A stretch of 64,000 bases of DNA, taken from Acidobacteriota bacterium. Lineage in GTDB: Bacteria; Acidobacteriota; UBA4820. The stretch is taken from positions 64,832 to 128,831 of the forward strand of contig JAKQCT010000066.1 of NCBI GenBank assembly GCA_029559035.1. The letters are read 5' to 3'. Below are positions 24,554 to 41,335 of the stretch, piece by piece. Made by a program: the position numbers and the translations under genes. Below the pieces are notes generated by a model. The model was not told the origin of the DNA and made no database searches. It was given only the letters and a program-made list of their open reading frames with translations. The first letter of the stretch is position 1; every line of letters starts with the position of its first letter.

Positions 24554-24577
24554 CAACATTCTTATTAGGAGGAATGA

Positions 24578-24991
24578 ATGCCTTTTTATCATTTTACTGA
24601 CACAAGGAACCTTCCTTCAATAAAACGTCACGGTCTCCTTAGTTGGTACAACTTACGCAATAGGAACATCGATCATTTTCCTGCATCTAATGATCTATCC
24701 CGTAAACTCGACTTAAAAAAAAGCCTTGAGAATTATGTCCGTCTTTGCTTAAAACCAAATCACCCTATGGCAAGTCGAGCATTATCTGAAGGAAGAATCC
24801 AAAGAATAGCATGGTTAGTTATTGATGACGCAGTGTCGCGGTGGCGATCCACCCTCTATAGCAATACAAATGCAACCGCAAACAATGCCGTAATTGATCA
24901 TGATATTAGAACGATTTACAATAGTTTTGATTCTCAGGCTGAAGTTCTTGTCGAAGGAGGTATTTCTCTCAAATGGATTACATTTCCGTAA
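24578..24991 (+). CDS. darT: DarT-like (DUF4433) DNA ADP-ribosyltransferase toxin, compact 137-aa form
   Basis: MPFYHFTDTRNLPSIKRHGLLS (DUF4433 N-motif), …ENYVRLCLKPNHPM…, C-terminal …SQAEVLVEGGISLKWI (catalytic Glu in QAE[VF]LV context). AGGAGG RBS; first gene of the AT-rich island. Confidence 0.6.
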   Translation: MPFYHFTDTRNLPSIKRHGLLSWYNLRNRNIDHFPASNDLSRKLDLKKSLENYVRLCLKPNHPMASRALSEGRIQRIAWLVIDDAVSRWRSTLYSNTNATANNAVIDHDIRTIYNSFDSQAEVLVEGGISLKWITFP

Positions 24992-25024
24992 TTTGATGGT
25001 TTCATTGAAAGAGCGAGGATAGAA

Positions 25025-25720
25025 TTGGCAGAAAGACCTGTTTTTATTCCTAATCACACCGGCAAGCAACTTGTTATTGAGAAAAATATTTCTTTTCATT
25101 GGAATCCAGGAATGAGCATATCTCAGAAAAGAAAGAACATAGTTGCTTTGCACGAAGCCGCCAGCATGATTGGAGTGTCACCGATTCTTGAAGTATCTAC
25201 AAAGTCCGATCAACAGATTGGCAATAGATTAAGTGCCTTCAACCTCAAAGTTAGAAGGAATACTGGGACACATATTTCTCTGGAATCTGCATTCCAAGGC
25301 AGTAAGGTATTTAAATACGGCGGCCCCTATAGTGACTTATATGGAAAAAGTGGCTTTGAGTGCAAAAAGGACGAGCGATTAAAGAACTCCGGTGAACTGG
25401 TTTCTTTCTGTTATGATGGCATTGAATGGGATCTTTCACCCCATACAGCTTTTTATGATTGGCTATATGTGAACGCAGTCCATTCGGGTCCATGTATTGA
25501 TGATGTGCTTCTTAGATACAACGGGTTCAGCGATATTGAATTCAATCCGGCAAAATCAATCAACTGCCAGGCCCGCTCATGCGCTTTATATGTTTCTCTG
25601 AAGAAAAGAAAACTTCTCGAAAATGCCATTAAAGACAAAGATTGTTTTATTGAACTGGTAAAAAACGGATACATTCAAAAGACCGACTTATCCCAAATGC
25701 ATCAAGGGAGCTTATTTTAG
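25025..25720 (+). CDS. Uncharacterised 231-aa protein in the antitoxin position downstream of darT-like; not a macrodomain
   Basis: 34-nt gap, same strand. No macro motifs (no GGG…AI / GIYG). Weak by-eye NADAR-like pattern FKYGGPYSDLYGKSGF…DGIEWDLSPHTAF. Confidence 0.5.
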   Translation: MAERPVFIPNHTGKQLVIEKNISFHWNPGMSISQKRKNIVALHEAASMIGVSPILEVSTKSDQQIGNRLSAFNLKVRRNTGTHISLESAFQGSKVFKYGGPYSDLYGKSGFECKKDERLKNSGELVSFCYDGIEWDLSPHTAFYDWLYVNAVHSGPCIDDVLLRYNGFSDIEFNPAKSINCQARSCALYVSLKKRKLLENAIKDKDCFIELVKNGYIQKTDLSQMHQGSLF

Positions 25721-25821
25721 CATAAGGAGAATTATATTACGGGGTCTCTAGGAAAGGCATATCAAATAAAACTATTGTCACGACAAAGGAAGACGTTGTC
25801 ATATAATTGTGAATAGCACTG

Positions 25822-26949
25822 CTATTTAATTACGGTACGCTTCATCCATTGGATGTCGCCTTCCTGAGAGTCTTTTCCTGATAACAGTACTTCATATTGT
25901 TCATTTTGAAGTTGACGGAAATACACTCTCCATTTTACCGCCTTAGAATGATACTCCTTCCATCCTTTATTTTGTCCTTCTACTCTCCACCCATCGATTT
26001 GGTTATTTATTATATTATGAATACTCTTTATGGCGTTAATTATTTCCTGGTCAGACAATTCAATTAATGCCATTTCTATGCTGCTCCGAACAAATATTAC
26101 GTTGGGCATTAACACTTCAATTATTGATGTAACTAAGTTCTTTCGGTCTGACAATGATGAATCCTTGTGCATTTTATCAAATATAGTTGTATTATCATTT
26201 TGAAGTCGGCATTTTTCTTGCCTAAGATGAGCGATCTCCATTTCACGTTGTTTTAATTCATTGTCAAATTCACTGATGTAATCGTTTAATTCTTTTTCTT
26301 TTTTCTCTATTTCTATCTTGAAATTAAATATTTCCTTATCTTTATTTTCTATTATTGCTTTGTACTCCGATTCGAGCTTATCTTTAGTTTGACTTTCAAG
26401 TCTCTCCTGGATTTTACTATTCAAAACATCGTTTTCTTCTTTACTTGATCTGAGCGATATTTCAAGTTCCTTCATCTTATTATTTTTACTAGCTATTTCC
26501 TTTTGATATTTTGCCTTCAGGGTTTCAACCTCAATATTTCTTAAAAACAATTCTTTTTCTATCGTTTCAATTCTGTTCAGGGATTCTTTAAGTGATTGAG
26601 ATGTATCATCTGCTTTTTTCTGAATTGCTTCCTGCGGAAGAGCAATATCTTGCTTTTTTTCCTCCTGCAAAGAAGTTTTCGTAAGACGTTGCTTCTTTTT
26701 TAATACTGCTCGCACCACAGCATTAATTTTTGTCTTACTCAATATATTGCTTTCACCTTCAACCCGGAAGTACCAATTGTATTGAATCCCATCAGATGCC
26801 GGACGAAAACTGTAGTTCTTCTTCGTTACTTGAATACCTTTTGATAATAATGCTTTTTCAATCTCATCATAATAGCCTTCAAAGGAGCGAGGAAGTAAAA
26901 GATATTTGAAATAACCTTGTTCGTCATAATACCATTTAGCATCTGACAT
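25822..26949 (-). CDS. Coiled-coil protein (375 aa) with small globular N- and C-terminal domains
   Basis: Long heptad-rich KE-rich middle (…LKAKYQKEIASKNNKMKELEISLRSSKEEND…); AT-rich codon usage. Confidence 0.5.
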   Translation of the reverse strand: MSDAKWYYDEQGYFKYLLLPRSFEGYYDEIEKALLSKGIQVTKKNYSFRPASDGIQYNWYFRVEGESNILSKTKINAVVRAVLKKKQRLTKTSLQEEKKQDIALPQEAIQKKADDTSQSLKESLNRIETIEKELFLRNIEVETLKAKYQKEIASKNNKMKELEISLRSSKEENDVLNSKIQERLESQTKDKLESEYKAIIENKDKEIFNFKIEIEKKEKELNDYISEFDNELKQREMEIAHLRQEKCRLQNDNTTIFDKMHKDSSLSDRKNLVTSIIEVLMPNVIFVRSSIEMALIELSDQEIINAIKSIHNIINNQIDGWRVEGQNKGWKEYHSKAVKWRVYFRQLQNEQYEVLLSGKDSQEGDIQWMKRTVIK

Positions 26950-27163
26950 TCACTACCTCCCCATATGCATCATTAAATGAACATTTTTTCAAAAGTGTTG
27001 TGATCTAACACTACTGAAAATATTTGCCCATCATGCTTCATCAACTCCTCTCCACCATTTTTCACGCCCAATCTATTCTACTCCTATCCTATTTCCAAAA
27101 AAATCCCCCGCCCTTGGGCTTTCGCTTCGGGGCGGGGGTGTCTTCAGCCATCAGCCTTCAGTT

Positions 27164-27898
27164 TTACTGTTTTGCTGCTTTCTTCGCCTTTCTCGTCGCT
27201 GCGGCCTTTTCGGGGGCTTTGCGCTGCGCGGCTGTCTTGCCGTTGCGCTTCAATATGCCCAGCTTTTCAAGAAGCTGGGGCTGGTCCCTCAGGGCGACCT
27301 TTGCGACCTTGATGAACGCGCTCATCCAATAGTCGATCGCTTCCATCGCCTTGTTCTGTTCATAGGTGGCCTGCTGGGCGGCTCCCTTCGCCGATTCCTG
27401 CGCCTGGTTCGCGGCCGTCAGCTCGACGATCTTTCCCCTCTCCTTCGAAAGCTTTTCGACAGTATATCCGTAAGACGACAGGATGTCGGTTATCTCCGCC
27501 GTGTGCGAAGCGTTGTCAAAGAGGGCCGTCGCCATCGTGATGAACAGCGGCAGGGCGTTCGGCATCGCGGCGTTCAACCCCAGAACCGCCAGCTTGGCCT
27601 TGTCCCTGACAAAAGCCGCCCTCGCCACCTGGGCGAGGTTCTGATAAGCCTTTTTCGCCTCCTTCTCGGCAGCCGACAACCTTGCCGTCGAATCCTTCTG
27701 GTCCCCGTAAGCGGCGACCTGCTTCTTTACAGCCGCCTCGGCCGCCTCGTACAAGCCCTTGCCCTCGCTGATCTTTGCCGTCTGGTAGCCGTACTCCCCC
27801 AAAAGCTGTCCGATCTGGGGATCCGAAAGAGCATTCGAAATTGCCACGTTCGCGGAAATCAACCTCTCTGACAAAGCGTTCTTCGGTCTGACCATCAT
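27164..27898 (-). CDS. Alpha-helical protein with C-terminal Lys/Ala-rich histone-H1/AlgP-like tail; candidate DNA-binding protein for the adjacent iteron array
   Basis: C-terminus …KTAAQRKAPEKAAATRKAKKAAKQ. The gene start abuts the 21-bp repeat array. Confidence 0.45.
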   Translation of the reverse strand: MMVRPKNALSERLISANVAISNALSDPQIGQLLGEYGYQTAKISEGKGLYEAAEAAVKKQVAAYGDQKDSTARLSAAEKEAKKAYQNLAQVARAAFVRDKAKLAVLGLNAAMPNALPLFITMATALFDNASHTAEITDILSSYGYTVEKLSKERGKIVELTAANQAQESAKGAAQQATYEQNKAMEAIDYWMSAFIKVAKVALRDQPQLLEKLGILKRNGKTAAQRKAPEKAAATRKAKKAAKQ

Positions 27899-27940
27899 GG
27901 CCTCCTTTCAGAAAAACTACTCTCCTTTGGTATGCGCTTC

Positions 27941-28306
27941 TGCTACTGGATTATCTTTCACTGCTACAACTCTATTTGCCTTTGCTACCGCCCCATTTGA
28001 CACTGCTACAGCCCGATTTCCCACTGCTACCATCCTATTTGTCGTTGCTACGACCCGATTTGTCCTTGCTACCGGGACGACAGCCATTGCTACCACGGTA
28101 GCAACCGCAGACAGGCCGGTAGCAACCATAAAATGACCGGTAGCAATCGTTTTTATGCCGGTAGCAATCACAGAAAGAGCGGTAGCAGCCATTAACATGG
28201 CCGTAGCAGACACAATTATGGCGGTAGCAACAATAATGTTACAGGTAGCGGACATAATTGTGGCGGTAGCAGACACAAACATGCCGGTAGGAATCAAAAA
28301 GAGAGA
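27941..28306. repeat. Non-coding array of 18 exactly 21-bp-phased repeats: 8x TGCTAC(C)… converging on 10x GGTAGCA… (inverted), centre TTGCTACCACGGTAGCAA; iteron / centromere-like (parC-type) site
   Basis: TGCTAC at 27941, 27962, 27983, 28004, 28025, 28046, 28067, 28088. GGTAGCA (or 1-mismatch) at 28097, 28118, 28139, 28160, 28181, 28202, 28223, 28244, 28265, 28286. Each unit also has an AT-rich sub-core (cc.ATTTg). Confidence 0.85.
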
Positions 28307-28482
28307 CTTGTAACAGGCTAACAGGCATAAAGATGTCGTAGAATGGCCACCGAACAAGCAAATATCGGCAAGAATCAATGAACCCCCCACAACCAGTTAA
28401 TAAAATCTATAAATAGTGGTTATCTAAGGGGGAATTATAGAGAGCGCGACGGGAGATGTCAAGAGGGGGGGAGGCCTAAGAT

Positions 28483-29913
28483 TTAGGTTAAGCCCATATC
28501 GTTCTTAATCTCAATAATAACTTCTTCTGTTCTTTCTCTTAACAAAGAATATTTTGACATTTCCTTTGTAGTATCTAGAAAAGATTCGAGTTTTTCCAAA
28601 GCCACAGGTGCGTTGTTTATCTTATAATAATAAAGAAACCCCAGAATAAAAAGAGAAGCATAAAACGTTGGGTTTTGTTGAAAATAGCTCTCGTTAAACC
28701 TGGTGCATCTGTCGATTGCCACAACTTCATTCTTAAAAATGTTGTCCTTTATTCTCGTATAATAGGAATAAGCGGTCTCATAATTCTCTATATACATATT
28801 TAGGAAGGCTTGGTTGTAAAGCCAAGTGCCGTCGCCATCAGAGAGAATTCCCGCCGCTCGACAATAATCCAATGCTTTATAGGCATCTCCATCAATTAGA
28901 AAAGCATAGTAAGCCTTTGATACAACAATAGAGTAATTGTTCTTATCAATTTTCTCAGCTTTAGCAACAAATGCCTTTGCCGATTTAATATCAGCTTTAG
29001 CATAGGCATTAATGGCTTTTTGAATGAGTTCCTCTATCAGCATCGAGCGTGTTCTTTCGTAAATATACACTATATTTGGTGGTTGTGGCTTGAAGTTCGA
29101 TAGATCCGCAAGCAGAGTGTTGTGGATATTATATGCAGTATTTGGATCGCCAGATACTAAGGCTGCCCATCCAATCATATACTGAGATGCCAAAAAGATC
29201 ATTTCCGCAGTGACTTGAAAACCACTAACTTCAAATGCCTCGTCAAACACAACTTCCTTCGGCAAAATTGCGTTGAATTCTTTTGATGCCTCTTTTGTAA
29301 CTGAGAAGTCTTTTGGTACATGTCTCACCATTGCGTTAAAAGTCAAGTAATATTTCTCTTCCCCCTCCTTTCGTTTTATAACGGAACCCCATATATACAA
29401 ATGAAAATGAGTCTTATTAATGAGTTTGCTGTGCATCTTGATTTTCTTGCTTTTTTGAAAGTCTTTTATTCTTTTCGTTTCAAGAAGCTTCTTCATTTCA
29501 TGTTGATATTCCATGAATAATTCATTAGCCATTTGGGCCTTGCACTCTTCAAAACATACTATATTAAGGAGATCGTCCAGTTTTTTCTTTTTACTTACCG
29601 CGTTCATGTTTTTAATAAAATCGTTTTTGATTCTGATTTTTTGATCGTCGTCTTCCGCTGTTATAGAAACGGCAATACCAATTCTATTCTTCAGGTTTTT
29701 AGGGTAGTGTTCTTTCCATAAGTACCAAGTAACAAACCAGCCAAAAAAAAGGATTAGATAAATCACCCATCTCAGCCATACTTCATCCAGAATATCTTTT
29801 AGCAAGCCATCTGTTGGTAATATCACCACCAGATACAACATAATGCAGCCAACGAAAAAGCCAACAGGTTTATTCTTGTATGTGTGGAAATACTCTTTAG
29901 GTAACTCAATCAT
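28483..29913 (-). CDS. Membrane-anchored (2 TM) TPR/Sel1-like helical-repeat protein, last gene of the Type III-like R-M operon
   Basis: N-terminal TM helices (…VGFFVGCIMLYLVVILP…, …WVIYLILFFGWFVTWYLW…); C-terminal TPR-like Ala/Tyr-rich repeats; AT-rich. Confidence 0.55.
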   Translation of the reverse strand: MIELPKEYFHTYKNKPVGFFVGCIMLYLVVILPTDGLLKDILDEVWLRWVIYLILFFGWFVTWYLWKEHYPKNLKNRIGIAVSITAEDDDQKIRIKNDFIKNMNAVSKKKKLDDLLNIVCFEECKAQMANELFMEYQHEMKKLLETKRIKDFQKSKKIKMHSKLINKTHFHLYIWGSVIKRKEGEEKYYLTFNAMVRHVPKDFSVTKEASKEFNAILPKEVVFDEAFEVSGFQVTAEMIFLASQYMIGWAALVSGDPNTAYNIHNTLLADLSNFKPQPPNIVYIYERTRSMLIEELIQKAINAYAKADIKSAKAFVAKAEKIDKNNYSIVVSKAYYAFLIDGDAYKALDYCRAAGILSDGDGTWLYNQAFLNMYIENYETAYSYYTRIKDNIFKNEVVAIDRCTRFNESYFQQNPTFYASLFILGFLYYYKINNAPVALEKLESFLDTTKEMSKYSLLRERTEEVIIEIKNDMGLT

Positions 29914-29958
29914 TCTAGAACCCTTTTAAGATGGATATGATGGACATCAGTACTGCCC

Positions 29959-30309
29959 TCATCCAATCGTCATGATCATGTATTCCATGTTCCTCTGCTT
30001 GCACCATATTTCCGCTGCTTTTCGTTTTCTCTGGACATCGTCGGAATCTATCCGGCTCGGGTCTTTGACTTCAATTATTACTTTCTTCCCATCTTCATAT
30101 TCGACGAAAAAATCCGGCACATACTTTCTTTGATGCTTCTGCCCATCGATCCAGGGAATGGTAATGCCGTGCCTTTTCATCCATTTCTTCACGAAAGGGT
30201 CTTTTTCAAGGCGGTCCATCATTCTTCTCTCAAGATCGCTGTGGTAGTTCTCGAAGTTCCAGGGGCTCTTCTTCGGATTTGCGTATTCACCGCGAATGCT
30301 AATCGCCAT
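29959..30309 (-). CDS. Small PD-(D/E)xK nuclease-fold protein (116 aa), possibly the detached endonuclease module of the upstream Res helicase
   Basis: …YVPDFFVEYEDGKKVIIEVKD… = D…E-V-K core; overlaps the res stop by 11 nt. Confidence 0.5.
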   Translation of the reverse strand: MAISIRGEYANPKKSPWNFENYHSDLERRMMDRLEKDPFVKKWMKRHGITIPWIDGQKHQRKYVPDFFVEYEDGKKVIIEVKDPSRIDSDDVQRKRKAAEIWCKQRNMEYMIMTIG

Positions 30310-32317: not shown

Positions 32318-32318
32318 C

Positions 32319-34334
32319 CTATTTCACCTCAACTTCGCCGGTCCAAATGCCTTCACCGCCCATATCATCCTGGACTTTACAGGCGACCGTAATCTTTCCT
32401 TCTTCGGGGAATTCATACTGAACCGACGACATCGGTTCCTTCTTGTCTGTCTTGGCAAATGCGTAATTGGCAGAGCTAGAAAAGCGATCTTGGTAATCAA
32501 AATCCCACTGAACATTGATTATTTTTGCGCCGGGATTCATAACGATAGTTTCGCTGGCGTCGAATTTATAAACCTTGTGGCTGATTCTCCTCATCCCCAC
32601 TTCTACCTTTGGGGATTGGACGAAGGTAAGGAAATTTTCGTAATCGGCGTGATCGGTGGAGAGCTTGGTGATGTGCTGCCGGAACGGTGGTGAATCAATG
32701 CGCACCATATCGAGCCGGATAAAATTGAGGTCTGTCAACTCCAGTCGTCTTAGCCTCTCAGCAGCTTCAACAGCATCAGGCCTGAACGCCCAGGCAAGCA
32801 TCATTCCGTCCCTTAAGTTGTCCTGCTGATATCTGAGCCCTTTTCTTATAGCATTGGCGAAATCCTGAACATCCTTGGAGGTGACCGCTTTTTTCTGGTC
32901 GGGCGATCCTATCCAGATTGGGATTGCCCCCTTATACCCATGTATCCCTTTTTCATTGCTCTCTATAACAGCGCCGAAAGCTTTTAAAACAAACGCCTGG
33001 AATTCCTTTTCCGGCATCTTCTCCATACGGCGTGCTTCATATACGCCCCAGTGCTCGACAGTGAAGTCGGGAACGGGGAAAAGGTTGCCTATCTTTTCTT
33101 CAACGAGACGCGTCAACCGATCAGCAGTTATTGCCACAGCCACACGGGATTGATCGCAGGCAATCCAGTGACGGCCAAGACGCTGGGCAACTGCGGCTGT
33201 AGTACCGCCACCAGAAAAAACGTCAGCAACTACATCGCCTTCAATTGTGAATGCCTTAATTACCTTTTCAAGCAATTCTTCAGGCTTTTGCGTTGGATAT
33301 CCTATTCTTTCATTTGCTGACTGATTGATAATATCCATTACCCACCAGTCTTTAGGTTTAACACCAACTTTCTCATCAAGATAATCTACTCGACACAGCT
33401 CAGGAGCCTTTGTCAACCATTCAATACCCACATCAGTAGAATTTTGAATTGGGCTCTCTTTAAGATTTCTCCCGTGAAGCCGGAATCTTCTCCCGTCATT
33501 ATCAATATGCTTATATTTTTTAATCGTGACCTCTGAAAAGGTATCGGCTACATTTTTCCAATTGTAACGATAGTGGGGAAAACCACTCTTTGAATACCAT
33601 AATATAGTATCATGTTGTGGGACAAATCGAGAGGTGCTTTGGTAGTAAGTAGTGTTTTTGCACCAAATAATTTCGTTCTTAAACCCAGGTTCTTTGCCAT
33701 CCTTGTCTCCATGACCAAAGATTTTGTCCAACTCCACCTTCACGTAATGGACTGCATGCAAATCAAGATGCACAATAAGCGATCCAGACTTCTTCAACAA
33801 TCTCTTTATTTCATATAGCCTTGCATTAAGCCAGATGAGATATCCTGGCATTCCGCCTTCCCAAATATCCGAGAAGGAGCGCAGTTCATTCTTGTCACCA
33901 AATATCACATTGTAATTCCGCCCAGAGAAGAAAGGCGGGTCAATATAAACTAGGTCAATGCTCTCACTTGGGAGCTGCCTCATCACGTGCAAGTTATCTC
34001 CCCAAAATAGTCTATTGGGTTCGAGATCAGGATGTCCGAATTTGACCCTCTCGACTATCTGGAATGGCAGTGATATTGTCGGAAAGAGCTTCCTGAATCC
34101 TCTCCTTCTATCCCATCCCAGCGGCTCCTTTTCAACCGGAACGCTCCCGAATCTTGTTGGCGGCCGCCAGAAGTCTTCTTGCTCCGGTAACGCTTCAATA
34201 CGCTCTTCTTCCACAGGAACTTCAATCTTTTTGAACTCATCCTCTGAGGTGCCTATCTCGGCAATCAGCGTCTTCTTTCCTTCATCCTTTTTCTTTGTCA
34301 TTATTTTTCCCCATTTGTGCGTAAAGCTGCCCAA
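32319..34334 (-). CDS. mod: Type III-like Mod N6-adenine (or N4-cytosine) DNA methyltransferase
   Basis: Motif IV IDPPF before motif I FSGGGTT (beta-class order); abuts res (1-nt gap). Confidence 0.85.
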   Translation of the reverse strand: MGSFTHKWGKIMTKKKDEGKKTLIAEIGTSEDEFKKIEVPVEEERIEALPEQEDFWRPPTRFGSVPVEKEPLGWDRRRGFRKLFPTISLPFQIVERVKFGHPDLEPNRLFWGDNLHVMRQLPSESIDLVYIDPPFFSGRNYNVIFGDKNELRSFSDIWEGGMPGYLIWLNARLYEIKRLLKKSGSLIVHLDLHAVHYVKVELDKIFGHGDKDGKEPGFKNEIIWCKNTTYYQSTSRFVPQHDTILWYSKSGFPHYRYNWKNVADTFSEVTIKKYKHIDNDGRRFRLHGRNLKESPIQNSTDVGIEWLTKAPELCRVDYLDEKVGVKPKDWWVMDIINQSANERIGYPTQKPEELLEKVIKAFTIEGDVVADVFSGGGTTAAVAQRLGRHWIACDQSRVAVAITADRLTRLVEEKIGNLFPVPDFTVEHWGVYEARRMEKMPEKEFQAFVLKAFGAVIESNEKGIHGYKGAIPIWIGSPDQKKAVTSKDVQDFANAIRKGLRYQQDNLRDGMMLAWAFRPDAVEAAERLRRLELTDLNFIRLDMVRIDSPPFRQHITKLSTDHADYENFLTFVQSPKVEVGMRRISHKVYKFDASETIVMNPGAKIINVQWDFDYQDRFSSSANYAFAKTDKKEPMSSVQYEFPEEGKITVACKVQDDMGGEGIWTGEVEVK

Positions 34335-34341
34335 TAGATCT

Positions 34342-34899
34342 TCAGGTTAGTAATTTAGAGATTTCATCAATTCCCAATTTGAATTCTTTTGCAAGTGCCC
34401 ATATTAATGCTAATAGCTCGGCAACACTTTTTACACTGGAAAGTCCTTTCCTTAATTTTTCCATGAATCCTTTTTGAGGAGTTCCTTCCTTATGAGCATC
34501 TATGTTTTTATCAATGATAGTTCGAATTTCGAGAAGCATTTGTATAGACTGGTTTTGCGACTGGCTTTGAGAAATTACTGTTGACGGACCCCCGCTGAAT
34601 GGCTTTTCTTCGTGGGAAAAATATTTTGCATACAACCTATTAATTAATCCATTAAGTTTCCCTCGGTAATCCGCCAAAGAAATAAACTCAAATCCCCCAG
34701 AGGATGTTGGCACGATCTTAAAACGAGCCATACTATCTCCAGTAAGCTTTTCAAGCTCATCAATAATATGGTTTATATTTTCCCAGCAAGTTTGTGATTG
34801 AGGTGGAAATGAATCTCTTGGATGCACAGGCATGGGGGTCTGGCTAAGATAGCCTTGGAGTTCCTCATATAAAACTTTAATTTCATCTATTTCCGCCAT
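34342..34899 (-). CDS. Hypothetical 185-aa protein, first gene of the R-M operon
   Basis: 8-nt gap to mod; preceded by gggagTATAAT promoter element; no recognisable motifs. Confidence 0.5.
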   Translation of the reverse strand: MAEIDEIKVLYEELQGYLSQTPMPVHPRDSFPPQSQTCWENINHIIDELEKLTGDSMARFKIVPTSSGGFEFISLADYRGKLNGLINRLYAKYFSHEEKPFSGGPSTVISQSQSQNQSIQMLLEIRTIIDKNIDAHKEGTPQKGFMEKLRKGLSSVKSVAELLALIWALAKEFKLGIDEISKLLT

Positions 34900-34976
34900 G
34901 CTTCCCTCCCTTTGCCTCCAAGTCTCTATTATACTCCCCCCCCCGTGTCATTTCGCGCTACAGGTCTTTTCCCCCC

Positions 34977-35282
34977 TCAAAGTACCCTTCCTAGCAGTTC
35001 AACTCTGCTGTCTTCCCACAGGTTCGCGGGGCTTATGAATCCGCGTTTATCGTAGGGGAACTCTATCCCGGCTCTGAGGAAGCATTCATAGACCAGTTCG
35101 GAGCAGATGTATTCGTTGTCCCTTTTCTTTTTCCCCCTGCCTGCTATGATCCTTGCGACGATCAGTTTTAAAATCCTCTTCAAAGGCTCAGTCAATTGTT
35201 TTGTCTTTCTTTCTGCTCCTCGGGACTTTTTTCTCAACCTTTTTCTGAACGTCTTTGATGGCGTCGAGATACGCCTTCTCAA
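34977..35282 (-). pseudogene. Probable C-terminal remnant of a permuted-papain (YiiX/DUF830-like) protein
   Basis: …ICSELVYECFLRAGIEF…RGFISPANLWE… preceded by a Lys/Arg-rich non-homologous N-extension; overlaps the rhuM 3' end. Confidence 0.3.
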
Positions 35283-36231
35283 CCTCGCTTAGATTCTTCG
35301 CTTTGTATTTGCGGAATTCGAGTGCGGCTTTTTCCGCAGCCTTCTCATGGCTTATTGTACCGGCATCGCCTAACAGTTTCCTGCCTGTTGTTCGTAAAAT
35401 ATTGTCCAACTCCCGTATATAATCCGCCATCTTCATCGGTTTATGTTCCATGGCGTTGATCTCAGCCAGGTCAAAATAAGCGGAGACAAGATTGTTAAGG
35501 ACCTTGAGCTCGCTTAATTCCAAAAAGTTCTTGGCGACCATCGCTTCGGCTTGAGTAGGCTGCAAGCCTTTAAAATTTCTCAGCCCAGCAAAGGGCCTGT
35601 CCGAATCCACCCGCAGATAAATCACTTCCGCCGCGGTATGCCCGTGGGCGGCATAATGAAGTTTGTTCTGGACTATTTTAAAGAACTTCAAGGACTCCTC
35701 TGCCCGGGGATCGTAATCAATCGCGGTGGCATAGAGGTCCAGCACCTGGCGATACAGCACTTTTTCACTGCTGCGGATATCCCGGATCTCATCGAGAAGG
35801 TCTTTCCAGTAATTCCCGCCGCCCAATTTCTTCAAACGATCTGAATCGACAGTGAAGCCCTTGACAATATATTCACGTAGGCGGGTCGTCGCCCAGATGC
35901 GGAAACGCGTTGCTACCGAGGATTTTATCCGGTAACCAAGCGAGATAATCATGTCGAGATTGTAATGCTCAACCTCATATGCCTTGCCGTCTGCCGCAGT
36001 TGTTCGGAATTTCCGAACAACTGAATCCCGATCCAGCTCCTTTTCTTCAAAAATATGTTTTATATGTTCACTGACATTTGCTTTGCTTGTCTGAAAAAGG
36101 TCCACAAGCTGGGATTGGGCGAGCCAGGCAGTCTCCCCTTGAAATCTGACATCAACGCTCGTCCTTCCATCGTCGGACTGATATATGACAATTTGGGTGT
36201 CTTGGCTTCCTTCTTTCATGTCATTCTCCAT
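35188..36231 (-). CDS. rhuM: RhuM-family virulence/Fic-DOC-associated protein
   Basis: N-terminus …IVIYQSDDGRTSVDVRFQGETAWLAQSQLVDLFQ… is the canonical RhuM start. The true start may be the second ATG (36219), which has a GGAGA RBS. Confidence 0.75.
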   Translation of the reverse strand: MENDMKEGSQDTQIVIYQSDDGRTSVDVRFQGETAWLAQSQLVDLFQTSKANVSEHIKHIFEEKELDRDSVVRKFRTTAADGKAYEVEHYNLDMIISLGYRIKSSVATRFRIWATTRLREYIVKGFTVDSDRLKKLGGGNYWKDLLDEIRDIRSSEKVLYRQVLDLYATAIDYDPRAEESLKFFKIVQNKLHYAAHGHTAAEVIYLRVDSDRPFAGLRNFKGLQPTQAEAMVAKNFLELSELKVLNNLVSAYFDLAEINAMEHKPMKMADYIRELDNILRTTGRKLLGDAGTISHEKAAEKAALEFRKYKAKNLSEVEKAYLDAIKDVQKKVEKKVPRSRKKDKTID

Positions 36232-36445
36232 TTAATATTCGCAACTAACATTATACTCCCTACCTCTCCCTTCGGGCGGCGCTGAAGGCTGAACCCAGGC
36301 TGATGGCTGAAGGCTTAAGGCTGAAGTTCAAAAACGAGATTGCCGCAGAAGGGTTTACGCTTCGAGGCGCTCTTCGCAATGACGAACCAGGGAAACTCGA
36401 TAAGGAGGCGGTTTTCTCTCTTTTAGTCAAGATAACCTTCCTTTT

Positions 36446-36634
36446 CTAGGAAGACTTTTTCTCTGATGCCACCCCAATGGCAGCGCCCAGGGCCATTCCA
36501 CCGCCGCATCCAACGGCAAGCCAGACAGCCAAAGCCCCGCTCGTGACGCCAATCAAAACCCCAACCAGCGCTCCAGCGGCAAACCCGATCGCAACGCCCA
36601 TAGCTAAATTATTTTTGCTGTTATGATCATCCAC
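36446..36634 (-). CDS. Small glycine-zipper membrane protein (62 aa)
   Basis: GxxxG-rich …GVAIGFAAGALVGVLIGVTSGALAVWLAVGCGGGMALGAAIG…; gggagTATAAT element upstream. Confidence 0.4.
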   Translation of the reverse strand: MDDHNSKNNLAMGVAIGFAAGALVGVLIGVTSGALAVWLAVGCGGGMALGAAIGVASEKKSS

Positions 36635-36756
36635 GGCTTCTCTCCTTTCCCTGCAACTTCAGCCTTAAGCCTTCAGCCTTAAGCCCTTGCGAAGCAATAT
36701 TATACTCCCTCCCCCCTGTCATTTGGAGCAACAGGCCCTCGCTCCGCTTTCGCTAC

Positions 36757-36910
36757 GCTTCCCGAAGAGAGGAGCTATCCTATCCTCTCTTAGGCGCTCC
36801 GCTCGCATACTCGCTGCGCTGAACACTCCCCCGGCAGGGAATGTGCCCTTTCGCAAAATGAATTTGTCTCAGGGCACAACATTCTATGCCCAGTGGGCAG
36901 GCTAAAGGCG
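36757..36910 (+). repeat. Family A structured repeat, copy 2
   Basis: Near-identical to 15125-15255 and 39097-39250. Confidence 0.65.
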
Positions 36911-37130
36911 GAAGGCTTACGCCAGAGCTGAAGAGCTGAAGGCTGATGGCTGAAGCCAGAGCTGAAGGCTGAAGGCGGAAGGCTGAAGTTCAATAGGGAA
37001 AAAGATTCCACAATTTTTCACTTTTCAATGCCGGCGTGTCCTTCGGACAGGCTGAAGGCTTAAGGCTGAAGCGCTGAAGTTCAATAAGGAAATGATTCCA
37101 CGAAGGTGAAATCAGGATGACCCTGTCCTG
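36895..37130. repeat. Family B modular repeat block (GCTGAAGG tandems plus gattccac modules)
   Basis: …gaaggcttacgccagagctgaagagctgaaggctgatggctgaagccagagctgaaggctgaaggcggaaggctgaagttcaatagggaaaaagattccacaatttttcacttttcaat…aaatgattccacgaaggtgaaatcaggatg. Confidence 0.55.
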
Positions 37131-38189
37131 CTATTCCTTGAACAGGATCGGGGCTGTATCGATTTTCGTTTTTTTTGCCTGCCGGATGATCTTTTTTATA
37201 TCGCTGTTAGTGTTGGCCGGAACAAGCTTCACTTCGGGATGGATAGAAGGATAGACTCGGAATATCTCATCCGCAAAGGCGTTCCCGATGGTGTCCACTC
37301 CGGTGAAATCCAGGACGACCACCTTGAAGCGTTCGAACCGCGCCAGGAGCCTCTTGGCCTGCGACCTGGAGATAAGCTGCTCCATCCCGTGTTTTAGAAG
37401 CCGGACCGCTATTATTGTCTTGTTGAACCCGTAGTCTTCCTTCGATGTCTGGTATTTATTGAAAATCTCTTTGGTAGTCCTCGGGCAGAGGTTCCTGCAG
37501 GACATGTAAACCACTGTTCCGGTTTCACCGATCTGTATGTCCCTGTCCCATATCCAGTCTTCTTCCTGTCCGATGTCGTGGGAAAAAAAGACGCCACCGG
37601 AAAATATCATGAAATGGTCGAACATCCGCGACGTGAAGAATATCCCCTCGCCTGTATGCCTCGATGGATCGGTTGTCAGCTTGCCTTTCGCCAGTTCGAG
37701 GATGGCGTGTCTTTCGTCCTCCAGGTTCAATTCATTCTTGATCTTTTTAAATATGCCGATGCCGTTGTCGGCAATGAACATTTCAACGGTGGCGGCGGTC
37801 TTCCGGATGACCACATTCAGATCTGTCCCCGCCGAGTGATCCACCGCGTTGTTCACAATTTCTGAAAACCCATAATTCCAAATATGAATCATGTTTTCAG
37901 GCAGGTCCTTGAGCGAATCGTCAATCTTTTCCCTCCAAAGCTTGTCCTCCTCAAGGTTTTGAAGACTGACTCGAAAGGATTTTGTCTCAAGCAGTTTAAG
38001 TTTGTAGGTTCTCTGGCGGGTTCTCCCTTCAGCCTCGATCAGCCTGTCTTTCACCAGAGCGTTGATATGGTTGATAATCGCCTGGCGGGTCAGGCCGAAT
38101 TTCTCCATGGCTTTCGCCACGACATCCTTTGGATGCTCGGTTATTTCATTCAAGATGAAGTCTCTGATTTCCTTGGTTCGTCTCGCCAT
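37131..38189 (-). CDS. wHTH - GHKL (histidine-kinase-like) ATPase - STAS-like (DUF4325-type) three-domain protein
   Basis: N-terminal wHTH (…KAMEKFGLTRQAIINHINALVKDRLIE…), N-box/G-box …IVNNAVDHSAG…ADNGIGI…, C-terminal ~100-aa STAS-like module (…FKVVVLDFTGVDTIGNAFADEIF…). Confidence 0.7.
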   Translation of the reverse strand: MARRTKEIRDFILNEITEHPKDVVAKAMEKFGLTRQAIINHINALVKDRLIEAEGRTRQRTYKLKLLETKSFRVSLQNLEEDKLWREKIDDSLKDLPENMIHIWNYGFSEIVNNAVDHSAGTDLNVVIRKTAATVEMFIADNGIGIFKKIKNELNLEDERHAILELAKGKLTTDPSRHTGEGIFFTSRMFDHFMIFSGGVFFSHDIGQEEDWIWDRDIQIGETGTVVYMSCRNLCPRTTKEIFNKYQTSKEDYGFNKTIIAVRLLKHGMEQLISRSQAKRLLARFERFKVVVLDFTGVDTIGNAFADEIFRVYPSIHPEVKLVPANTNSDIKKIIRQAKKTKIDTAPILFKE

Positions 38190-38211
38190 ATTCCTCTCGG
38201 ATCAGGGATGC

Positions 38212-38307
38212 TATTGTCAACTATCCCAAGTCTTATTGTCAACTTATTGGGGACAATTGTCAACTAATACCCGACACATTACCAATATATTTCAATGATA
38301 TTGTCAA
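38212..38307. promoter_or_regulatory. Four direct repeats of ATTGTCAAC upstream of the wHTH-GHKL-STAS gene
   Basis: Copies at 38212, 38235, 38255, 38299 (spacing 23/20/44). Reverse complement GTTGACAAT embeds TTGACA. Confidence 0.5.
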
Positions 38308-38402
38308 CCATTAAGACTTTTAACACCGTTAACTTCTTGATTATCAACAATATGAGCAACATTCTCCTTGCAGTCATTCCGTACAACAAACCGCACGGAG
38401 CC

Positions 38403-38566: not shown

Positions 38567-38794
38567 TTATTTTAGAAGCTCACAGAAATCATCAACCGAG
38601 AGAAAGGCATCACGGATCAAGGCTCTCAGCAATCCCCTGTCAAGGGTCTTGTGATCCGGGATGCTAAGGGTGGTAATTGTGCCTTCTTTTTTCAAGATCA
38701 TGTGTCGGCTGCTTCCAACTCTAGCGACCACCCATCCGGCTTTTTCGAAAGCGGCGACAGCTTCCCGGCCGGATATTGAAGGAAGTTTCGACAT
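38567..38794 (-). CDS. hicA: HicA-family toxin, copy 3
   Basis: …AFEKAGWVVARVGSSRHMILKKEG…. Confidence 0.8.
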   Translation of the reverse strand: MSKLPSISGREAVAAFEKAGWVVARVGSSRHMILKKEGTITTLSIPDHKTLDRGLLRALIRDAFLSVDDFCELLK

Positions 38795-39004
38795 TTACAC
38801 AGTCACTTCTACAAATGTCACATCCTTTTGAGGAGGAGTCACCAATTCCCGATCAAGCGCGTTGAGACAGCCGCGGATGGCATCCTTGATGTTCTCGAGT
38901 GCTTCCTCCAAAGATTCTCCCTGAGAGTGACATCCGGGGATTGCGGGACAATGCGCGATGTAGCCGAAATCTTCGCCTTTTTCCAGTACGACTCTGTAAA
39001 CCAT
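38795..39004 (-). CDS. hicB: HicB-family antitoxin, copy 3
   Basis: MVYRVVLEKGEDFGYIAHCPAIPGCHSQGESLEEALENIKDAIRGCL…; start placed at the internal Met (the ORF extends to 39070). Confidence 0.7.
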   Translation of the reverse strand: MVYRVVLEKGEDFGYIAHCPAIPGCHSQGESLEEALENIKDAIRGCLNALDRELVTPPQKDVTFVEVTV

Positions 39005-39096
39005 TGATTCCTCCAGCAATATGATATGGTCAATGCTTTCCGAATGCAAGTGCTTTTCCTGAAAGAGCATCCAGAGCGGATGGCTGAAGGATGACG

Positions 39097-39250
39097 CTTC
39101 CCGAAGAGAGGAGCTATCCTATCCTCTCTTAGGCGCTCCGCTCGCATACTCGCTGCGCTGAACACTCCCCCGGCAGGGAATGTGCCCTTTCGCAAAATGA
39201 ATTTGTCTCAGGGCACAACATTCTATGCCCAGCGGGCAGGCTAAAGGCTG
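39097..39250 (+). repeat. Family A structured repeat, copy 3 (directly upstream of hicBA copy 3)
   Basis: Near-identical to copies at 15125 and 36757. Confidence 0.65.
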
Positions 39251-41323: not shown

Positions 41324-41335
41324 GCGGGGGGATCC

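What the first reader, a model, noticed from the sequence alone, without database searches (positions are those of the whole stretch)
24560..38310. About 13.7-kb AT-shifted genomic island packed with defence and mobile-type cargo
Base composition drops sharply from the GC-rich flanks to AT-rich sequence right after the protease gene stop at 24553. It recovers after the ATTGTCAAC repeats at ~38.3 kb. Cargo: the DarT-like pair, a coiled-coil protein, the iteron array with a KA-tail protein, a TPR membrane protein, a PD-(D/E)xK mini-nuclease, Type III-like Res and Mod, RhuM, a YiiX-like remnant, a glycine-zipper peptide and a wHTH-GHKL-STAS protein. Most are on the minus strand and are driven by reiterated gggagTATAAT -10 elements. 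No integrase or transposase is visible, which suggests an old or decayed insertion, or mobilisation in trans. The island is bracketed on the right by families A, B and C repeats and a hicBA pair.
Basis: partly seen in the sequence, partly recalled or inferred. Interest (0 to 1): 0.6.

Follow-up and report, generated by a model that had tools for sequence, protein, structure and literature searches.

The report
Strain-variable defence-gene hotspot, larger than claimed
The AT-rich block is real and carries horizontally acquired anti-phage and toxin-antitoxin genes, but it is part of a ~25-kb, integrase-less, strain-variable hotspot between an iron-uptake operon and a metal-efflux operon of an uncultured Acidobacteriota bacterium, which is an ordinary kind of genome feature.

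Summary
The compositional shift is real, but the borders are wrong. Atypical GC, GC3 and tetranucleotide signature run from ~14.8 kb (just after feoC) to ~39.5 kb (just before czcB-czcA), not 24.56-38.31 kb. Two genes inside have native-like composition: the membrane trypsin-like protease and a PQLLE-family gene.

- an intact DarT-like/NADAR pair
- Type III-like Mod plus a naturally split Res (helicase + 116-aa PD-ExK nuclease)
- RhuM, a YiiX remnant, a glycine-zipper peptide, wHTH-GHKL-STAS and hicAB.

The 'TPR' call is unverified. A second hicBA pair, an NTP_transf_8/DUF6788 pair and an ELWxxDGT giant protein lie in the left part.

Near-identical strains (99% in the flanks) carry other cargo in the same slot: a Type II R-M, a Ser/Thr kinase, intact YiiX, an M23 peptidase and an HTH-SNF2 helicase. 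Modules assort independently. The Res helicase is ~80% identical across phyla, while core genes are at most 59-75% identical to anything else.

There is no integrase, tRNA or convincing att site. Most breakpoints fall in dispersed repeat families that fill every intergenic gap.

Verdict: a core-flanked defence/TA hotspot with modular turnover, and a new member of a known kind. A conserved two-armed 21-nt array upstream of PQLLE genes is the oddest thing seen in passing.

The parts
14584..14814 (+). feoC, the last gene of the dtxR-feoA-feoB-feoC operon and the left conserved anchor of the hotspot
   Evidence: Pfam FeoC/FeoB/FeoA in called genes. All strain variants are 99.7-99.8% identical to the window up to 15021-15122 and then diverge.
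14870..15331 (.). Left repeat block S1: CTGAAGG heptamer runs, two type-A units (GCTGAAGTTCAAYARGGAA-ATGATTCCAC plus an AT-rich tail) and a ~180-200-nt type-2 element (15122-15331)
   Evidence: The type-2 element is absent from strain contig L166, where 31 nt stand in its place.
15373..16366 (-). NTP_transf_8 nucleotidyltransferase (15373-16068) plus its DUF6788 partner (16040-16366), a toxin-antitoxin-like pair
   Evidence: Pfam PF12281 at E 8.5e-25; DUF6788 in the called genes. The module is deleted between type-A repeats in L167 and L169 and partly deleted in L168 and L170.
16902..17329 (+). Second hicB/hicA pair (hicB2 16902-17105, hicA2 17102-17329)
   Evidence: Pfam HicB_lk_antitox at 3e-11 and HicA_toxin at 3.4e-16. 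Only 32-34% identical to the right-hand pair. Replaced by other cargo in L166 and L167.
17964..22424 (-). 1486-aa ELWxxDGT-repeat protein, probably secreted; AT-shifted (GC3 0.40)
   Evidence: TIGR04534 at 8.6e-234 with 16 repeats; DNA repeats with a 114-153-nt period; composition.
22796..24553 (+). Membrane-anchored trypsin-like (HtrA-type catalytic domain) protease with native-like composition (GC3 0.76). A rare lineage-specific gene that splits the tract
   Evidence: Pfam Trypsin_2, NCBIfam, GC3. Only 3 other homologue clusters, at 56-61% identity. In those relatives it neighbours Fic/Bro-N, ankyrin proteins and PRTase-CE + NADAR.
24578..25720 (+). DarT-like ADP-ribosyltransferase (24578-24991, 137 aa) plus NADAR antitoxin (25025-25720): a DarTG1-type toxin-antitoxin/defence pair
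   Evidence: PF14487 at 3.2e-14, PF22397 at 4.6e-88, PADLOC DarT. NADAR matches 8BAT at 5e-65. The 137-aa length is normal for its subfamily and all invariant residues (H5, T7, N11, E122 and others) are kept.
25822..26949 (-). 375-aa coiled-coil protein, strain-private, function unknown
   Evidence: No family hit apart from a weak SMC coil match. The 90% cluster has 2 members. GC3 is 0.31.
27164..28462 (-). PQLLE-family gene (27164-27898) preceded by a two-armed array of 21-nt repeats (about 27940-28300) and a consensus promoter (28434-28462). A native-like, lineage-conserved module embedded in the tract
   Evidence: NF052641 at 8.8e-53, GC3 0.77, promoter, array. Homologues in other genomes have the same architecture.
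28483..29913 (-).
   Evidence: No Pfam, PADLOC, NCBIfam, PHROG or PDB hit. Its cluster has a single member.
29959..34334 (-). Type III-like restriction-modification operon: Mod (32319-34334), Res helicase (30299-32317) and a separate 116-aa PD-ExK nuclease (29959-30309)
   Evidence: N6_N4_Mtase at 6.7e-44, ResIII at 2.2e-14, Tn7_TnsA-like_N at 2.5e-13. The helicase and the nuclease both map onto one fused BPTD_3080/REase_III model. More than 100 helicase homologue clusters of 671-673 aa at 77-81% identity occur in several phyla.
34342..34899 (-). 185-aa unknown protein preceded by a GGGAGTATAAT promoter-like repeat (34927-34991)
   Evidence: No family hit; motif (D18).
34977..35282 (-). 3' remnant of a YiiX/Peptidase_C92 gene. 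The left edge of the segment shared with strains L089, L090 and L189 lies at 35011-35016
   Evidence: 69% identity to residues 116-195 of the intact 195-aa Peptidase_C92 in L090; breakpoints.
35188..36231 (-). RhuM-family protein (PADLOC candidate defence gene PDC-S05), shared by all four haplotypes
   Evidence: PF13310 at 3.1e-98, PDC-S05 at 2.9e-155; present in L089, L090 and L189 at 94-99%.
36446..36634 (-). 62-aa glycine-zipper membrane peptide
   Evidence: Weak match to the YiaD glycine-zipper family at 1.8e-4; called in all haplotypes.
36755..36955 (+). Type-2 element plus heptamer run, left copy of a 201-nt direct repeat (98%) whose right copy is 39094-39293. Together they flank the GHKL-STAS + hicAB modules, and the strain breakpoint lies at 36942
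   Evidence: (D4).
37131..38308 (-). wHTH-GHKL ATPase-DUF4325 (STAS-like) gene (37131-38189) with four upstream ATTGTCAAC repeats (38213-38308). The cassette is flanked by 40-nt direct repeats at 37080-37119 and 38509-38548
   Evidence: PF14213 at 1.7e-13, with HATPase_c and MarR_2 below their Pfam cut-offs; motif; flanking repeats (D17). Absent from L090, L189 and L190, which carry a Peptidase_M23 gene instead.
38567..39070 (-). hicA (38567-38794) and hicB (38795-39070) toxin-antitoxin pair, part of the variable tract
   Evidence: PF07927 at 2.9e-14 and PF15919 at 4.8e-9; absent from L090 and L189.
39071..39500 (.). Right repeat block S9 (type-2, heptamers, type-A, inverted type-3). Identity to all strains resumes at 39500
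40025..44410 (+). czcB-like membrane-fusion protein and CusA/CzcA RND pump, the right conserved anchor
   Evidence: Pfam; 98-99% identical in L089, L090 and L189.

Best explanation
The finding is the right-hand two thirds of a ~24.7-kb chromosomal hotspot (about 14.8-39.5 kb) in an uncultured Acidobacteriota species from wastewater and digester metagenomes. The hotspot is wedged between two conserved operons, dtxR-feoABC and czcBA.

It holds a mosaic of horizontally acquired, mostly self-contained modules, each with its own promoter-like element:
- a DarT-like/NADAR pair (DNA ADP-ribosylating toxin with a reversing antitoxin)
- a Type III-like R-M system with a split Res
- RhuM
- two HicAB pairs
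- an NTP_transf_8/DUF6788 pair
- a wHTH-GHKL-STAS protein
- several strain-private unknown proteins.

It also holds two native-like genes (the protease and PQLLE).

Inferred function: a pooled anti-phage and addiction-gene repertoire that differs from strain to strain.

Inferred turnover: modules are replaced, deleted and re-assorted by recombination. Crossovers fall either in the conserved flanks and shared modules (after DNA uptake from co-occurring strains) or in the dispersed repeat families that fill every intergenic gap. A resident integrase is not involved.

What is shown: the composition, the gene content, the strain-level replacement, the independent assortment of modules and the cross-phylum similarity of the cargo.

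What is inferred: the defence function, the activity of each system and the recombination mechanism.
For: (1) Composition. GC, GC3 and tetranucleotide signature are atypical from 14.8 to 39.5 kb.

(2) Content. PADLOC, Pfam and NCBIfam hits to DarT, NADAR-DarT1, REase_III, MTase_III, PDC-S05/RhuM and HicAB x2. DarT and NADAR look intact.

(3) Same slot, different cargo, in strains 98-99% identical in the flanks.
- L090/L190: Peptidase_M23, intact YiiX, Type II R-M, Ser/Thr kinase.
- L089: HTH-SNF2 helicase plus unknown genes.
- L189: a recombinant of L089's left cargo with L090's right cargo.
- Left side (L166-L170): the NTP_transf_8 module is present, absent or truncated, and hicBA2 with the ELWxxDGT gene is replaced by other genes.

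(4) Horizontal transfer. The Res helicase is 77-81% identical in Planctomycetes, Gammaproteobacteria, Chloroflexi and Thermoanaerobaculia. FeoB, CzcB and CzcA reach at most 59%, 62% and 75% identity outside the species. The tm476, cc375 and NADAR clusters have 1-2 members, against 11-12 for core genes.

(5) No integrase, transposase or tRNA from 1.9 to 54.4 kb.

(6) Seven of nine mapped breakpoints lie in or at the edge of dispersed repeats. The GHKL cassette and the GHKL+hicAB block are each flanked by direct repeats (40 nt at 95%; 201 nt at 98%).

(7) Assemblies break inside the tract, and even a 702-kb contig ends there.

(8) The concept is established. Core-flanked defence hotspots with varied arrangements across isolates are described in P. 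aeruginosa (cDHS1, median 26 kb; PMC10250203).
Against: - No phage-resistance phenotype, expression data or activity is available for any module.
- Several genes are not defence genes by any test: the ELWxxDGT protein, the protease, PQLLE and the glycine-zipper peptide.
- Intergenic DNA in the tract is almost entirely repeats. Breakpoints that fall between genes would coincide with repeats by default, so the coincidence does not prove that repeats drive the exchange.
- One breakpoint (35011-35016) lies inside a gene remnant and another (15962) inside a gene, so illegitimate events also occur.
- It is unknown whether the protease and PQLLE are fixed. If they are, there may be two or three adjacent hotspots rather than one.
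- No empty site was recovered.
- Only four right-side and about five left-side haplotypes were seen, and most are on short contigs.
Confidence: 0.78

Rival explanations
1. One reading: one discrete ~13.7-kb integrative island (24.56-38.31 kb) that entered in a single event and has since lost its integrase, or is mobilised in trans.
For: There is a sharp GC drop right after the protease stop. In distant relatives the DNA downstream of the protease homologue also differs. An 11-nt direct match, AGCAACATTCT, sits at 24552 and 38355.
Against: - Atypical composition continues on both sides, at 14.8-22.4 kb and 38.3-39.5 kb.
- No strain breakpoint falls at either proposed end. They lie at 35.01, 36.94 and 39.50 kb and in the 15-16.8 kb zone.
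- The interior is compositionally mosaic, with a native-like and lineage-conserved PQLLE module.
- Modules assort independently among strains.
- An 11-mer match has an expectation of about 0.03-0.1 in the windows searched.
- There is no integrase remnant and no tRNA.
Confidence: 0.05
2. A cassette-exchange system. The type-A repeat ([CTGAAGG]n-CTGAAGTTCAAYARGGAA|ATGATTCCAC) is a recombination site for a recombinase or transposase encoded elsewhere. That enzyme could be integron-like, Xer/dif-module-like or REP/RAYT-like. It would insert, excise and shuffle cassettes at a fixed position.
For: - All type-A copies in the window have the same orientation, whatever the gene orientation (7 of 7 matches to the 19-nt search pattern, plus one further copy at 38500-38548).
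- At least four different continuations follow the same point, just after GGGAA.
- The M23 cassette of L090 is bounded by ...TCAATAGGGAA| on the left and |GGAAAGTGATTCCAC on the right, as if inserted into one type-A unit.
- The GHKL and hicAB cassettes are each bracketed by type-A units.
- The repeats are 80-97% identical in related species whose proteins are only 55-79% identical.
Against: - No recombinase lies within 12-15 kb on either side.
- Type-A lacks the inverted R''/R' architecture of attC, and there is no Rfam hit.
- The central 12 kb (24.6-36.2 kb) has no type-A copies, yet it is replaced between strains.
- Other repeat families have mixed orientation.
- The type-2 polymorphism at 15122-15331 is a replacement without a clean target-site duplication.
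- Mosaic REP/BIME-like elements give similar junction patterns without any dedicated cassette system.
- The M23 case is a single example.
Confidence: 0.12
3. The tract is native DNA of unusual composition (lowly expressed accessory or surface genes), or a MAG assembly or binning chimera, and was not horizontally acquired.
For: Two genes inside are native-like. MAG contigs can be chimeric. Assemblies break at the repeats.
Against: - Identical sequence across every junction in two or more independent assemblies from different samples.
- Cargo differs among 99%-identical strains.
- The Res helicase is ~80% identical across phyla, while core genes have no relative above 59-75%.
Confidence: 0.03

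Closest known systems
Core defence hotspots (cDHS1/cDHS2 of Pseudomonas aeruginosa; Johnson et al. 2023, PMC10250203) and defence islands in general
   Same: A fixed chromosomal slot bounded by conserved core genes. It is tens of kb long (cDHS1 median 26 kb; here ~24.7 kb). Arrangements of R-M, TA-type and unknown systems vary between isolates of one species, and many genes have unknown function.
   Different: The host is an uncultured Acidobacteriota species known only from metagenomes. Only a handful of haplotypes are known and there is no phenotype. The intergenic space is saturated with three or more dispersed repeat families, and native-like genes are interleaved.
Mobile-element-borne defence islands of E. 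coli (Hochhauser et al. 2023, PMC10121019)
   Same: Strain-variable defence cargo at preferred chromosomal positions, with co-localisation of several systems.
   Different: In E. coli the cargo usually rides on recognisable prophages, ICEs or transposons that integrate at hotspots. Here no integrase, transposase, phage or conjugation gene is present, and there is no match to plasmid records. The only match to phage records is a 74% match over part of RhuM.
DarTG1 (DarT1-NADAR) toxin-antitoxin/defence system (Schuller et al. 2023, PMC11543638)
   Same: A darT-like gene directly upstream of a NADAR gene of the DarT1-associated family (PF22397 full length; 8BAT Geobacter lovleyi NADAR at E 5e-65).
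   Different: The toxin is a compact 137-aa DarT-like domain that is only weakly similar to E. coli C7 DarT1 (8BAQ, E 0.08, N-terminal half). It belongs to a large subfamily of ~135-160-aa proteins or C-terminal domains. Its base specificity is untested.
Type III restriction-modification (Mod + Res; fused BPTD_3080-type endonucleases)
   Same: The mod-res gene order, a beta-class N6/N4 methyltransferase with an inserted recognition domain, a ResIII/SF2 helicase and a PD-(D/E)xK nuclease.
   Different: The nuclease is a separate 116-aa protein that overlaps the helicase gene by 11 nt. This split form is the conserved state of a widespread family of 671-673-aa helicases, not a frameshift.
Integron cassette arrays / CALINs and Acinetobacter pdif modules
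   Same: Short modules (often TA genes) separated by a reiterated site in uniform orientation, with strain-to-strain module shuffling and an AT shift.
   Different: No integron integrase and no attC-type imperfect palindrome. Genes lie in both orientations relative to the repeat, each module carries its own promoter-like element, and large repeat-free multi-gene blocks are also exchanged.

Membership tests
Core-flanked defence hotspot / defence island | The same chromosomal slot is bounded by conserved core genes in different strains | tested here: met
   The feoABC side is 99.7-99.8% identical and the czcBA side 98-99.5% identical in variant contigs.
Core-flanked defence hotspot / defence island | Gene content of the slot varies between strains of one species | tested here: met
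   Four right-side haplotypes (window, L089, L090/L190, L189) and about five left-side haplotypes.
Core-flanked defence hotspot / defence island | Enrichment of recognised defence or TA systems | tested here: met
   PADLOC hits to DarT, REase_III, MTase and PDC-S05, plus two HicAB pairs and NADAR. The alternative haplotypes carry a Type II R-M and an HTH-SNF2 helicase.
Core-flanked defence hotspot / defence island | The genes actually protect against phage | not testable with these tools
   This needs expression of the modules and phage challenge; the host is uncultured.
Integrase-mediated genomic island | An integrase or recombinase gene at one end | tested here: not met
   No such Pfam family in any called gene from 1.9 to 54.4 kb.
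Integrase-mediated genomic island | Flanking att direct repeats, often at a tRNA/tmRNA gene | tested here: not met
No tRNA. The repeats at the true borders belong to dispersed families that are also present inside the tract and in other genomes.
Integron / CALIN cassette array | attC sites (R''-L''...L'-R' imperfect palindromes) after each cassette, with or without intI | tested here: not met
   By manual inspection only, type-A contains GTTCAAC (fits RYYYAAC) but has no inverted partner. There is no intI. No attC covariance model was available, so this test is weak.
DarTG1 (DarT1-NADAR) | A DarT-family ART with conserved catalytic residues, adjacent to and upstream of a DarT1-type NADAR | tested here: met
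   PF14487 at 53.6 bits (cut-off 22.5), PF22397 at 294.6 bits, and a 33-nt gap between the two genes. Subfamily-invariant H5, T7, N11 and E122 are kept.
DarTG1 (DarT1-NADAR) | Toxicity of DarT rescued by NADAR; guanine-specific ssDNA ADP-ribosylation | not testable with these tools
   This is biochemistry and genetics, as done in PMC11543638.
Type III restriction-modification | Mod methyltransferase plus a Res protein with helicase and PD-(D/E)xK nuclease in one polypeptide | tested here: not met
   Mod and the helicase are present, but the nuclease is a separate 116-aa ORF. The system works like a Type III enzyme, but it is a split-Res variant. Homologues are uniformly 671-673 aa.
HicAB type II toxin-antitoxin | A HicA toxin domain gene adjacent to a HicB-like antitoxin gene | tested here: met
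   Two pairs, at 16902-17329 and 38567-39070.
Prophage / plasmid / ICE remnant | Structural, replication or transfer genes, or DNA similarity to known elements | tested here: not met
   PHROGs gave nothing informative. Megablast of 14.8-39.6 kb found no plasmid match, and the only phage match was 74% over part of RhuM.

The most novel reading that the evidence does not exclude
The dispersed repeats are not passive junk but the substrates of a dedicated cassette-exchange mechanism encoded elsewhere in the genome. The key one is the uniformly oriented type-A unit, whose sequence is interrupted at one recurrent point (just after GGGAA) by different cassettes. This would amount to an integron-like or REP/RAYT-like system that shuffles defence and TA cassettes in this Acidobacteriota lineage. 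It would explain why the repeats are better conserved between species (80-97% nt) than the proteins (55-79% aa).
Probability: 0.12. Interest if true: 0.8.

Novelty: new member of a known kind. Interest (0 to 1): 0.4.

Why it matters
This is a clear example, from a poorly studied and uncultured phylum, of a core-flanked immune-gene hotspot that turns over without any resident integrase.

Practical value:
- feoC and czcB can serve as anchors to harvest further variable cargo from wastewater metagenomes of this species. That cargo includes strain-private unknown genes (cc375, tm476, u185, wHTH-GHKL-STAS) that are reasonable candidates for new defence functions.
- It shows that the split-Res Type III-like system and the compact DarT-like/NADAR pair are widespread, conserved architectures.

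Conceptually it adds little to what is known from Pseudomonas, E. coli and Vibrio, unless the repeats prove to be recombination sites.

Tried and rejected
- Synteny with other species. The genome-collection scan with FeoB found nothing closer than 59% identity (Thermoanaerobaculum), so it gave no close relative in which to look for an empty site. Metagenome relatives of CzcB at 62% identity or less share only the czcBA pair. So no empty site could be defined at species level; only strain-level variants were informative.
- Exact look-ups of the 532-aa HlyD and 601-aa protease ORFs failed because the called starts differ. They worked with the called coordinates.
- att sites at 24.55/38.3 kb: only one 11-mer, judged to be chance.
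- Known RNA families: none anywhere in the window.
- attC-like structure in the type-A repeat: no inverted partner. A MITE with a target-site duplication for the type-2 element: the L166 'empty' allele is a 31-nt replacement, not a clean excision.
- DarT truncation (Pfam covers only 1-120 of 201): rejected, because 137 aa is the normal length of this subfamily.
- Res frameshift pseudogene: rejected, because homologues are uniformly 671-673 aa.
- A RelE/ParE-like C-terminus in the coiled-coil protein (my impression from reading the sequence): no support from PDB sequence search.
- TPR in the 476-aa protein: no support.
- PQLLE fold: a confident all-alpha model but no significant structural neighbour. 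No PQLLE in plasmids or phages and none in the literature.
- Prophage or plasmid origin of the tract: no evidence.

Full report
**Observation.** The GC drop after the protease stop codon (24553) is real, but it is not the edge of the atypical DNA.
- At 400-nt resolution, GC is 0.54-0.60 up to 14.8 kb. It is 0.40-0.51 from 14.8 to 22.4 kb and rises to 0.52-0.62 over the protease gene. It then stays at 0.30-0.53 from 24.4 to 39.6 kb, apart from a 0.55-0.60 inset at 27.2-28.0 kb. It returns to 0.59-0.66 from 39.6 kb.
- Core genes have GC3 of 0.72 +/- 0.09. Every gene between 15.3 and 39.1 kb has GC3 of 0.31-0.65, except the protease (0.76) and the PQLLE-family gene (0.77).
- The tetranucleotide correlation with the core is 0.91-0.96 outside 14.8-39.6 kb and 0.02-0.76 inside.
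- The left anchor is the dtxR-feoA-feoB-feoC operon, ending at 14814. The right anchor is a small ORF (39573-39929) followed by czcB and czcA.

**Gene content.**
- The DarT-like protein (137 aa) covers only the first 120 of 201 Pfam positions. It is nevertheless full-length for its subfamily. A search of 1.84 billion representatives found 1179 relatives, many of them standalone proteins of 135-160 aa or C-terminal domains ending at the same residue. The window protein keeps all subfamily-invariant residues, including H5, T7, N11 and E122 in a QAEVL motif.
- Its partner is a full-length DarT1-associated NADAR (PF22397, 4.6e-88; 8BAT at 5e-65). This is the DarT-NADAR (DarTG1) arrangement characterised by Schuller et al. 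(PMC11543638).
- The 672-aa ResIII helicase and the 116-aa TnsA_N-like PD-ExK protein map to different parts of the same fused Type III-like endonuclease models. More than 100 homologue clusters of the helicase are all 671-673 aa long. The split is therefore the normal architecture, not a frameshift.
- Also confirmed: RhuM (equal to the PADLOC candidate PDC-S05), the wHTH-HATPase-DUF4325 protein, hicAB, the glycine-zipper peptide (weak) and the YiiX remnant.
- The coiled-coil protein has only a weak SMC-coil match. The '476-aa TPR membrane protein' and the 185-aa protein have no informative hit.

**Source and reality of the assembly.** The window is identical to a contig of an 'Acidobacteriota bacterium' MAG (GCA_035342895.1) and to contigs from three JGI metagenomes and Logan assemblies. 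All junctions are spanned by independent assemblies, so a chimera is unlikely. Shorter assemblies break at the repeats.

**Comparison with relatives.** Other species gave no usable synteny. Strain-level variants were decisive.
- Right side, L089 (activated sludge): 99.1% identical to the window from 35016 onward, but unrelated to the left of that point. There it carries two unknown genes and an HTH-SNF2/ResIII helicase.
- Right side, L090 (also seen as L190 in another sample): 99% identical from 39500 and 96.5% over RhuM. It has a Peptidase_M23 gene instead of wHTH-GHKL-STAS plus hicAB. Left of RhuM it has an intact YiiX peptidase, a Type II R-M (N6_N4 methylase plus MutH/MvaI-like endonuclease), a Ser/Thr kinase and more. 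All of this alternative cargo is also AT-shifted.
- Right side, L189: the end of a 702-kb contig from another MAG. It combines L089-type left cargo with the L090-type M23 module, so modules assort independently.
- Left side: contigs with an identical FeoC are 99.7-99.8% identical up to 15021-15122 and then differ. One lacks the ~200-nt type-2 element. Two lack the NTP_transf_8 module, and two have it truncated at 15962. Two carry unrelated genes in place of hicBA2 and the ELWxxDGT gene.
The horizontal-acquisition idea is supported, but for a larger and mosaic tract.

**Evidence for horizontal transfer.**
- The Res helicase is 77-81% identical to proteins from Planctomycetes, Phycisphaerales, Gammaproteobacteria, Chloroflexi and Thermoanaerobaculia.
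- FeoB, CzcB and CzcA have no relative above 59%, 62% and 75% outside the species.
- The 90%-identity clusters of the NADAR, coiled-coil and 476-aa proteins hold 1-2 members, against 11-12 for core proteins.

**Mobility.**
- There is no tRNA, and no integrase or transposase in any called gene from 1.9 to 54.4 kb.
- There is no phage-like content and no DNA match to plasmids. The only phage match is 74% over part of RhuM, in two unannotated phage contigs.

**The repeats.**
- Three or more dispersed families fill all nine larger intergenic gaps between 14.8 and 39.5 kb. Outside the tract there is only one partial copy in the window, at 11732-11819.
- The families are: type-A ([CTGAAGG]n-CTGAAGTTCAAYARGGAA-ATGATTCCAC plus an AT-rich tail; all eight copies on the + strand); a ~180-200-nt type-2 element; and a ~50-150-nt type-3 element.
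- The same families occur at 80-97% identity in contigs of related species whose proteins are only 55-79% identical. They are lineage-wide elements, not island-specific att sites.
- Seven of nine strain breakpoints lie in or beside them. The GHKL cassette is flanked by 40-nt direct repeats (95%), and the GHKL+hicAB block by 201-nt direct repeats (98%).
- The M23 cassette of L090 sits between the two halves of a type-A unit.
- Because the intergenic DNA is nearly all repeat, this coincidence is suggestive but not proof. Two breakpoints lie inside genes.

**Promoter-like motif.** GGGAGTATAAT is found three times in the window. It also precedes the M23 gene, the HTH-SNF2 gene and a gene in a related species. 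It looks like a lineage-typical -10 region that each module brings along.

**Interpretation.** The best-supported reading is a core-flanked defence/TA hotspot, like the cDHS loci of P. aeruginosa (PMC10250203). It differs from the mobile-element-borne islands typical of E. coli (PMC10121019).
- Each module is probably an independent immune or addiction unit: DNA ADP-ribosylation reversed by NADAR, methylation-dependent restriction, HicA RNases, and so on. These functions are inferred from family membership.
- Turnover most likely proceeds by homologous recombination after DNA exchange between co-occurring strains. Crossovers would fall in the conserved flanks, in shared modules such as RhuM, or in the dispersed repeats, with occasional illegitimate events.
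- A dedicated site-specific mechanism acting on type-A repeats is not excluded (about 0.12).

**Seen in passing: the PQLLE module.** The most unusual element in the tract is not foreign.
- The PQLLE gene (NF052641) has native-like composition. It belongs to a family of about 400 clusters with a smooth identity gradient in Acidobacteriota and neighbouring phyla.
- A perfect TTGACA-17-TATAAT promoter precedes it. Then comes an array in which about 9 units of GCTACC+15 nt are followed, after a central dyad, by about 8 units of GGTAGC+15 nt.
- Homologues at 79% and 72% identity in other genomes have the same two-armed 21-nt architecture, but with different core motifs (UGCUU/CAAGCA; UUCCUAC/GUAGGAA). 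The arms therefore co-vary.
- The predicted RNA hairpins have z-scores of -6.1, -3.95 and -3.1.
- The protein model is a confident all-alpha internal duplication with a Lys/Ala tail and no structural neighbour.
- Whether the array acts as RNA or as a symmetric DNA binding array is open.

**Verdict.** The feature is a new member of a known kind. Interest is moderate (0.4), mainly for the candidate genes, the repeat-bounded modularity and the embedded PQLLE array.

Noticed in passing
window 27164-28462 (minus strand); also L183 5917-7124, L185 9177-10738, L187 407-1998: A consensus promoter is followed by a ~360-nt array of 21-nt units in two arms of opposite orientation around a central dyad, and then by a PQLLE-family gene (NF052641). 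The architecture is conserved upstream of homologues at 72-79% identity, but with different core motifs, so the two arms co-vary. The predicted giant hairpins have z-scores of -6.1, -3.95 and -3.1. The protein is an all-alpha internal duplication with a Lys/Ala tail and has no structural neighbour, no literature, and no plasmid or phage copies. Gene callers call a 141-238-aa heptad-repeat ORF through the array.
   Followed up: partly
window 14870-15331, 16500-16790, 17547-17885, 22450-22733, 27075-27176, 36280-36340, 36655-37120, 38388-38548, 39076-39470; partial copy 11732-11819; L176, L181-L184: Three or more dispersed repeat families, including tandem CTGAAGG heptamers, are 80-97% identical in related species whose proteins are only 55-79% identical. 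They are therefore better conserved than coding sequence. Type-A copies all share one orientation and are interrupted at a recurrent point, just after GGGAA.
   Followed up: partly
Its expectation is about 0.03-0.1 and no strain breakpoint supports it, so it is judged to be chance.
   Followed up: yes
window 38213-38308 and 22462-22481: ATTGTCAAC is repeated four times at 22, 21 and 44-nt spacing directly upstream of the wHTH-GHKL-STAS gene, probably as operators for its own wHTH domain. A palindromic pair (ATTGTCAACAAATTGACAAG) lies between the ELWxxDGT gene and the protease gene.
   Followed up: no
window 22796-24553; L176-L181: The membrane-anchored trypsin-like protease is very rare: only 3 other clusters at 56-61% identity among 5.8 billion proteins. 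In those relatives it sits next to Fic/Bro-N, ankyrin-repeat proteins, or ankyrin plus PRTase-CE plus NADAR. The slot downstream of this protease therefore also holds conflict-type genes elsewhere.
   Followed up: partly
window 771-2063: A second AT-shifted islet holds a 430-aa ankyrin-repeat protein (GC 0.44, GC3 0.39; tetranucleotide r 0.60 for the 1-3000 window that holds it) at the left end of the window. Ankyrin proteins neighbour the protease homologue in related contigs.
   Followed up: no
window 29959-32317: The split-Res helicase family is strikingly uniform: more than 100 clusters, all 671-673 aa and 77-81% identical, across Planctomycetes, Gammaproteobacteria, Chloroflexi and Acidobacteriota. 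It has no close relative (26% identity at most) in 72,556 sequenced plasmids.
   Followed up: partly
window 12591-12660: The FeoB reading frame has no ATG, GTG or TTG upstream of its G1 motif (IGQPNVGKST). The listed GTG start lies inside the P-loop, and NCBI calls a start 15 nt upstream. This suggests a non-canonical start codon.
   Followed up: no
window 35616-36087: Part of the RhuM gene matches two unannotated 'Bacteriophage sp.' contigs from human faeces at 74-76% nucleotide identity (MT836552.1, MT838340.1).
   Followed up: no
L189 (GCA_032942435.1 JAWDGN010000018.1), positions 1-7486: A 702-kb MAG contig ends inside this hotspot, 7.5 kb upstream of czcA. Several other assemblies also break at 14.93, 22.58, 27.13, 36.88, 39.11 or 39.37 kb. 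The tract is a systematic assembly breakpoint, so its diversity is probably under-sampled.
   Followed up: partly
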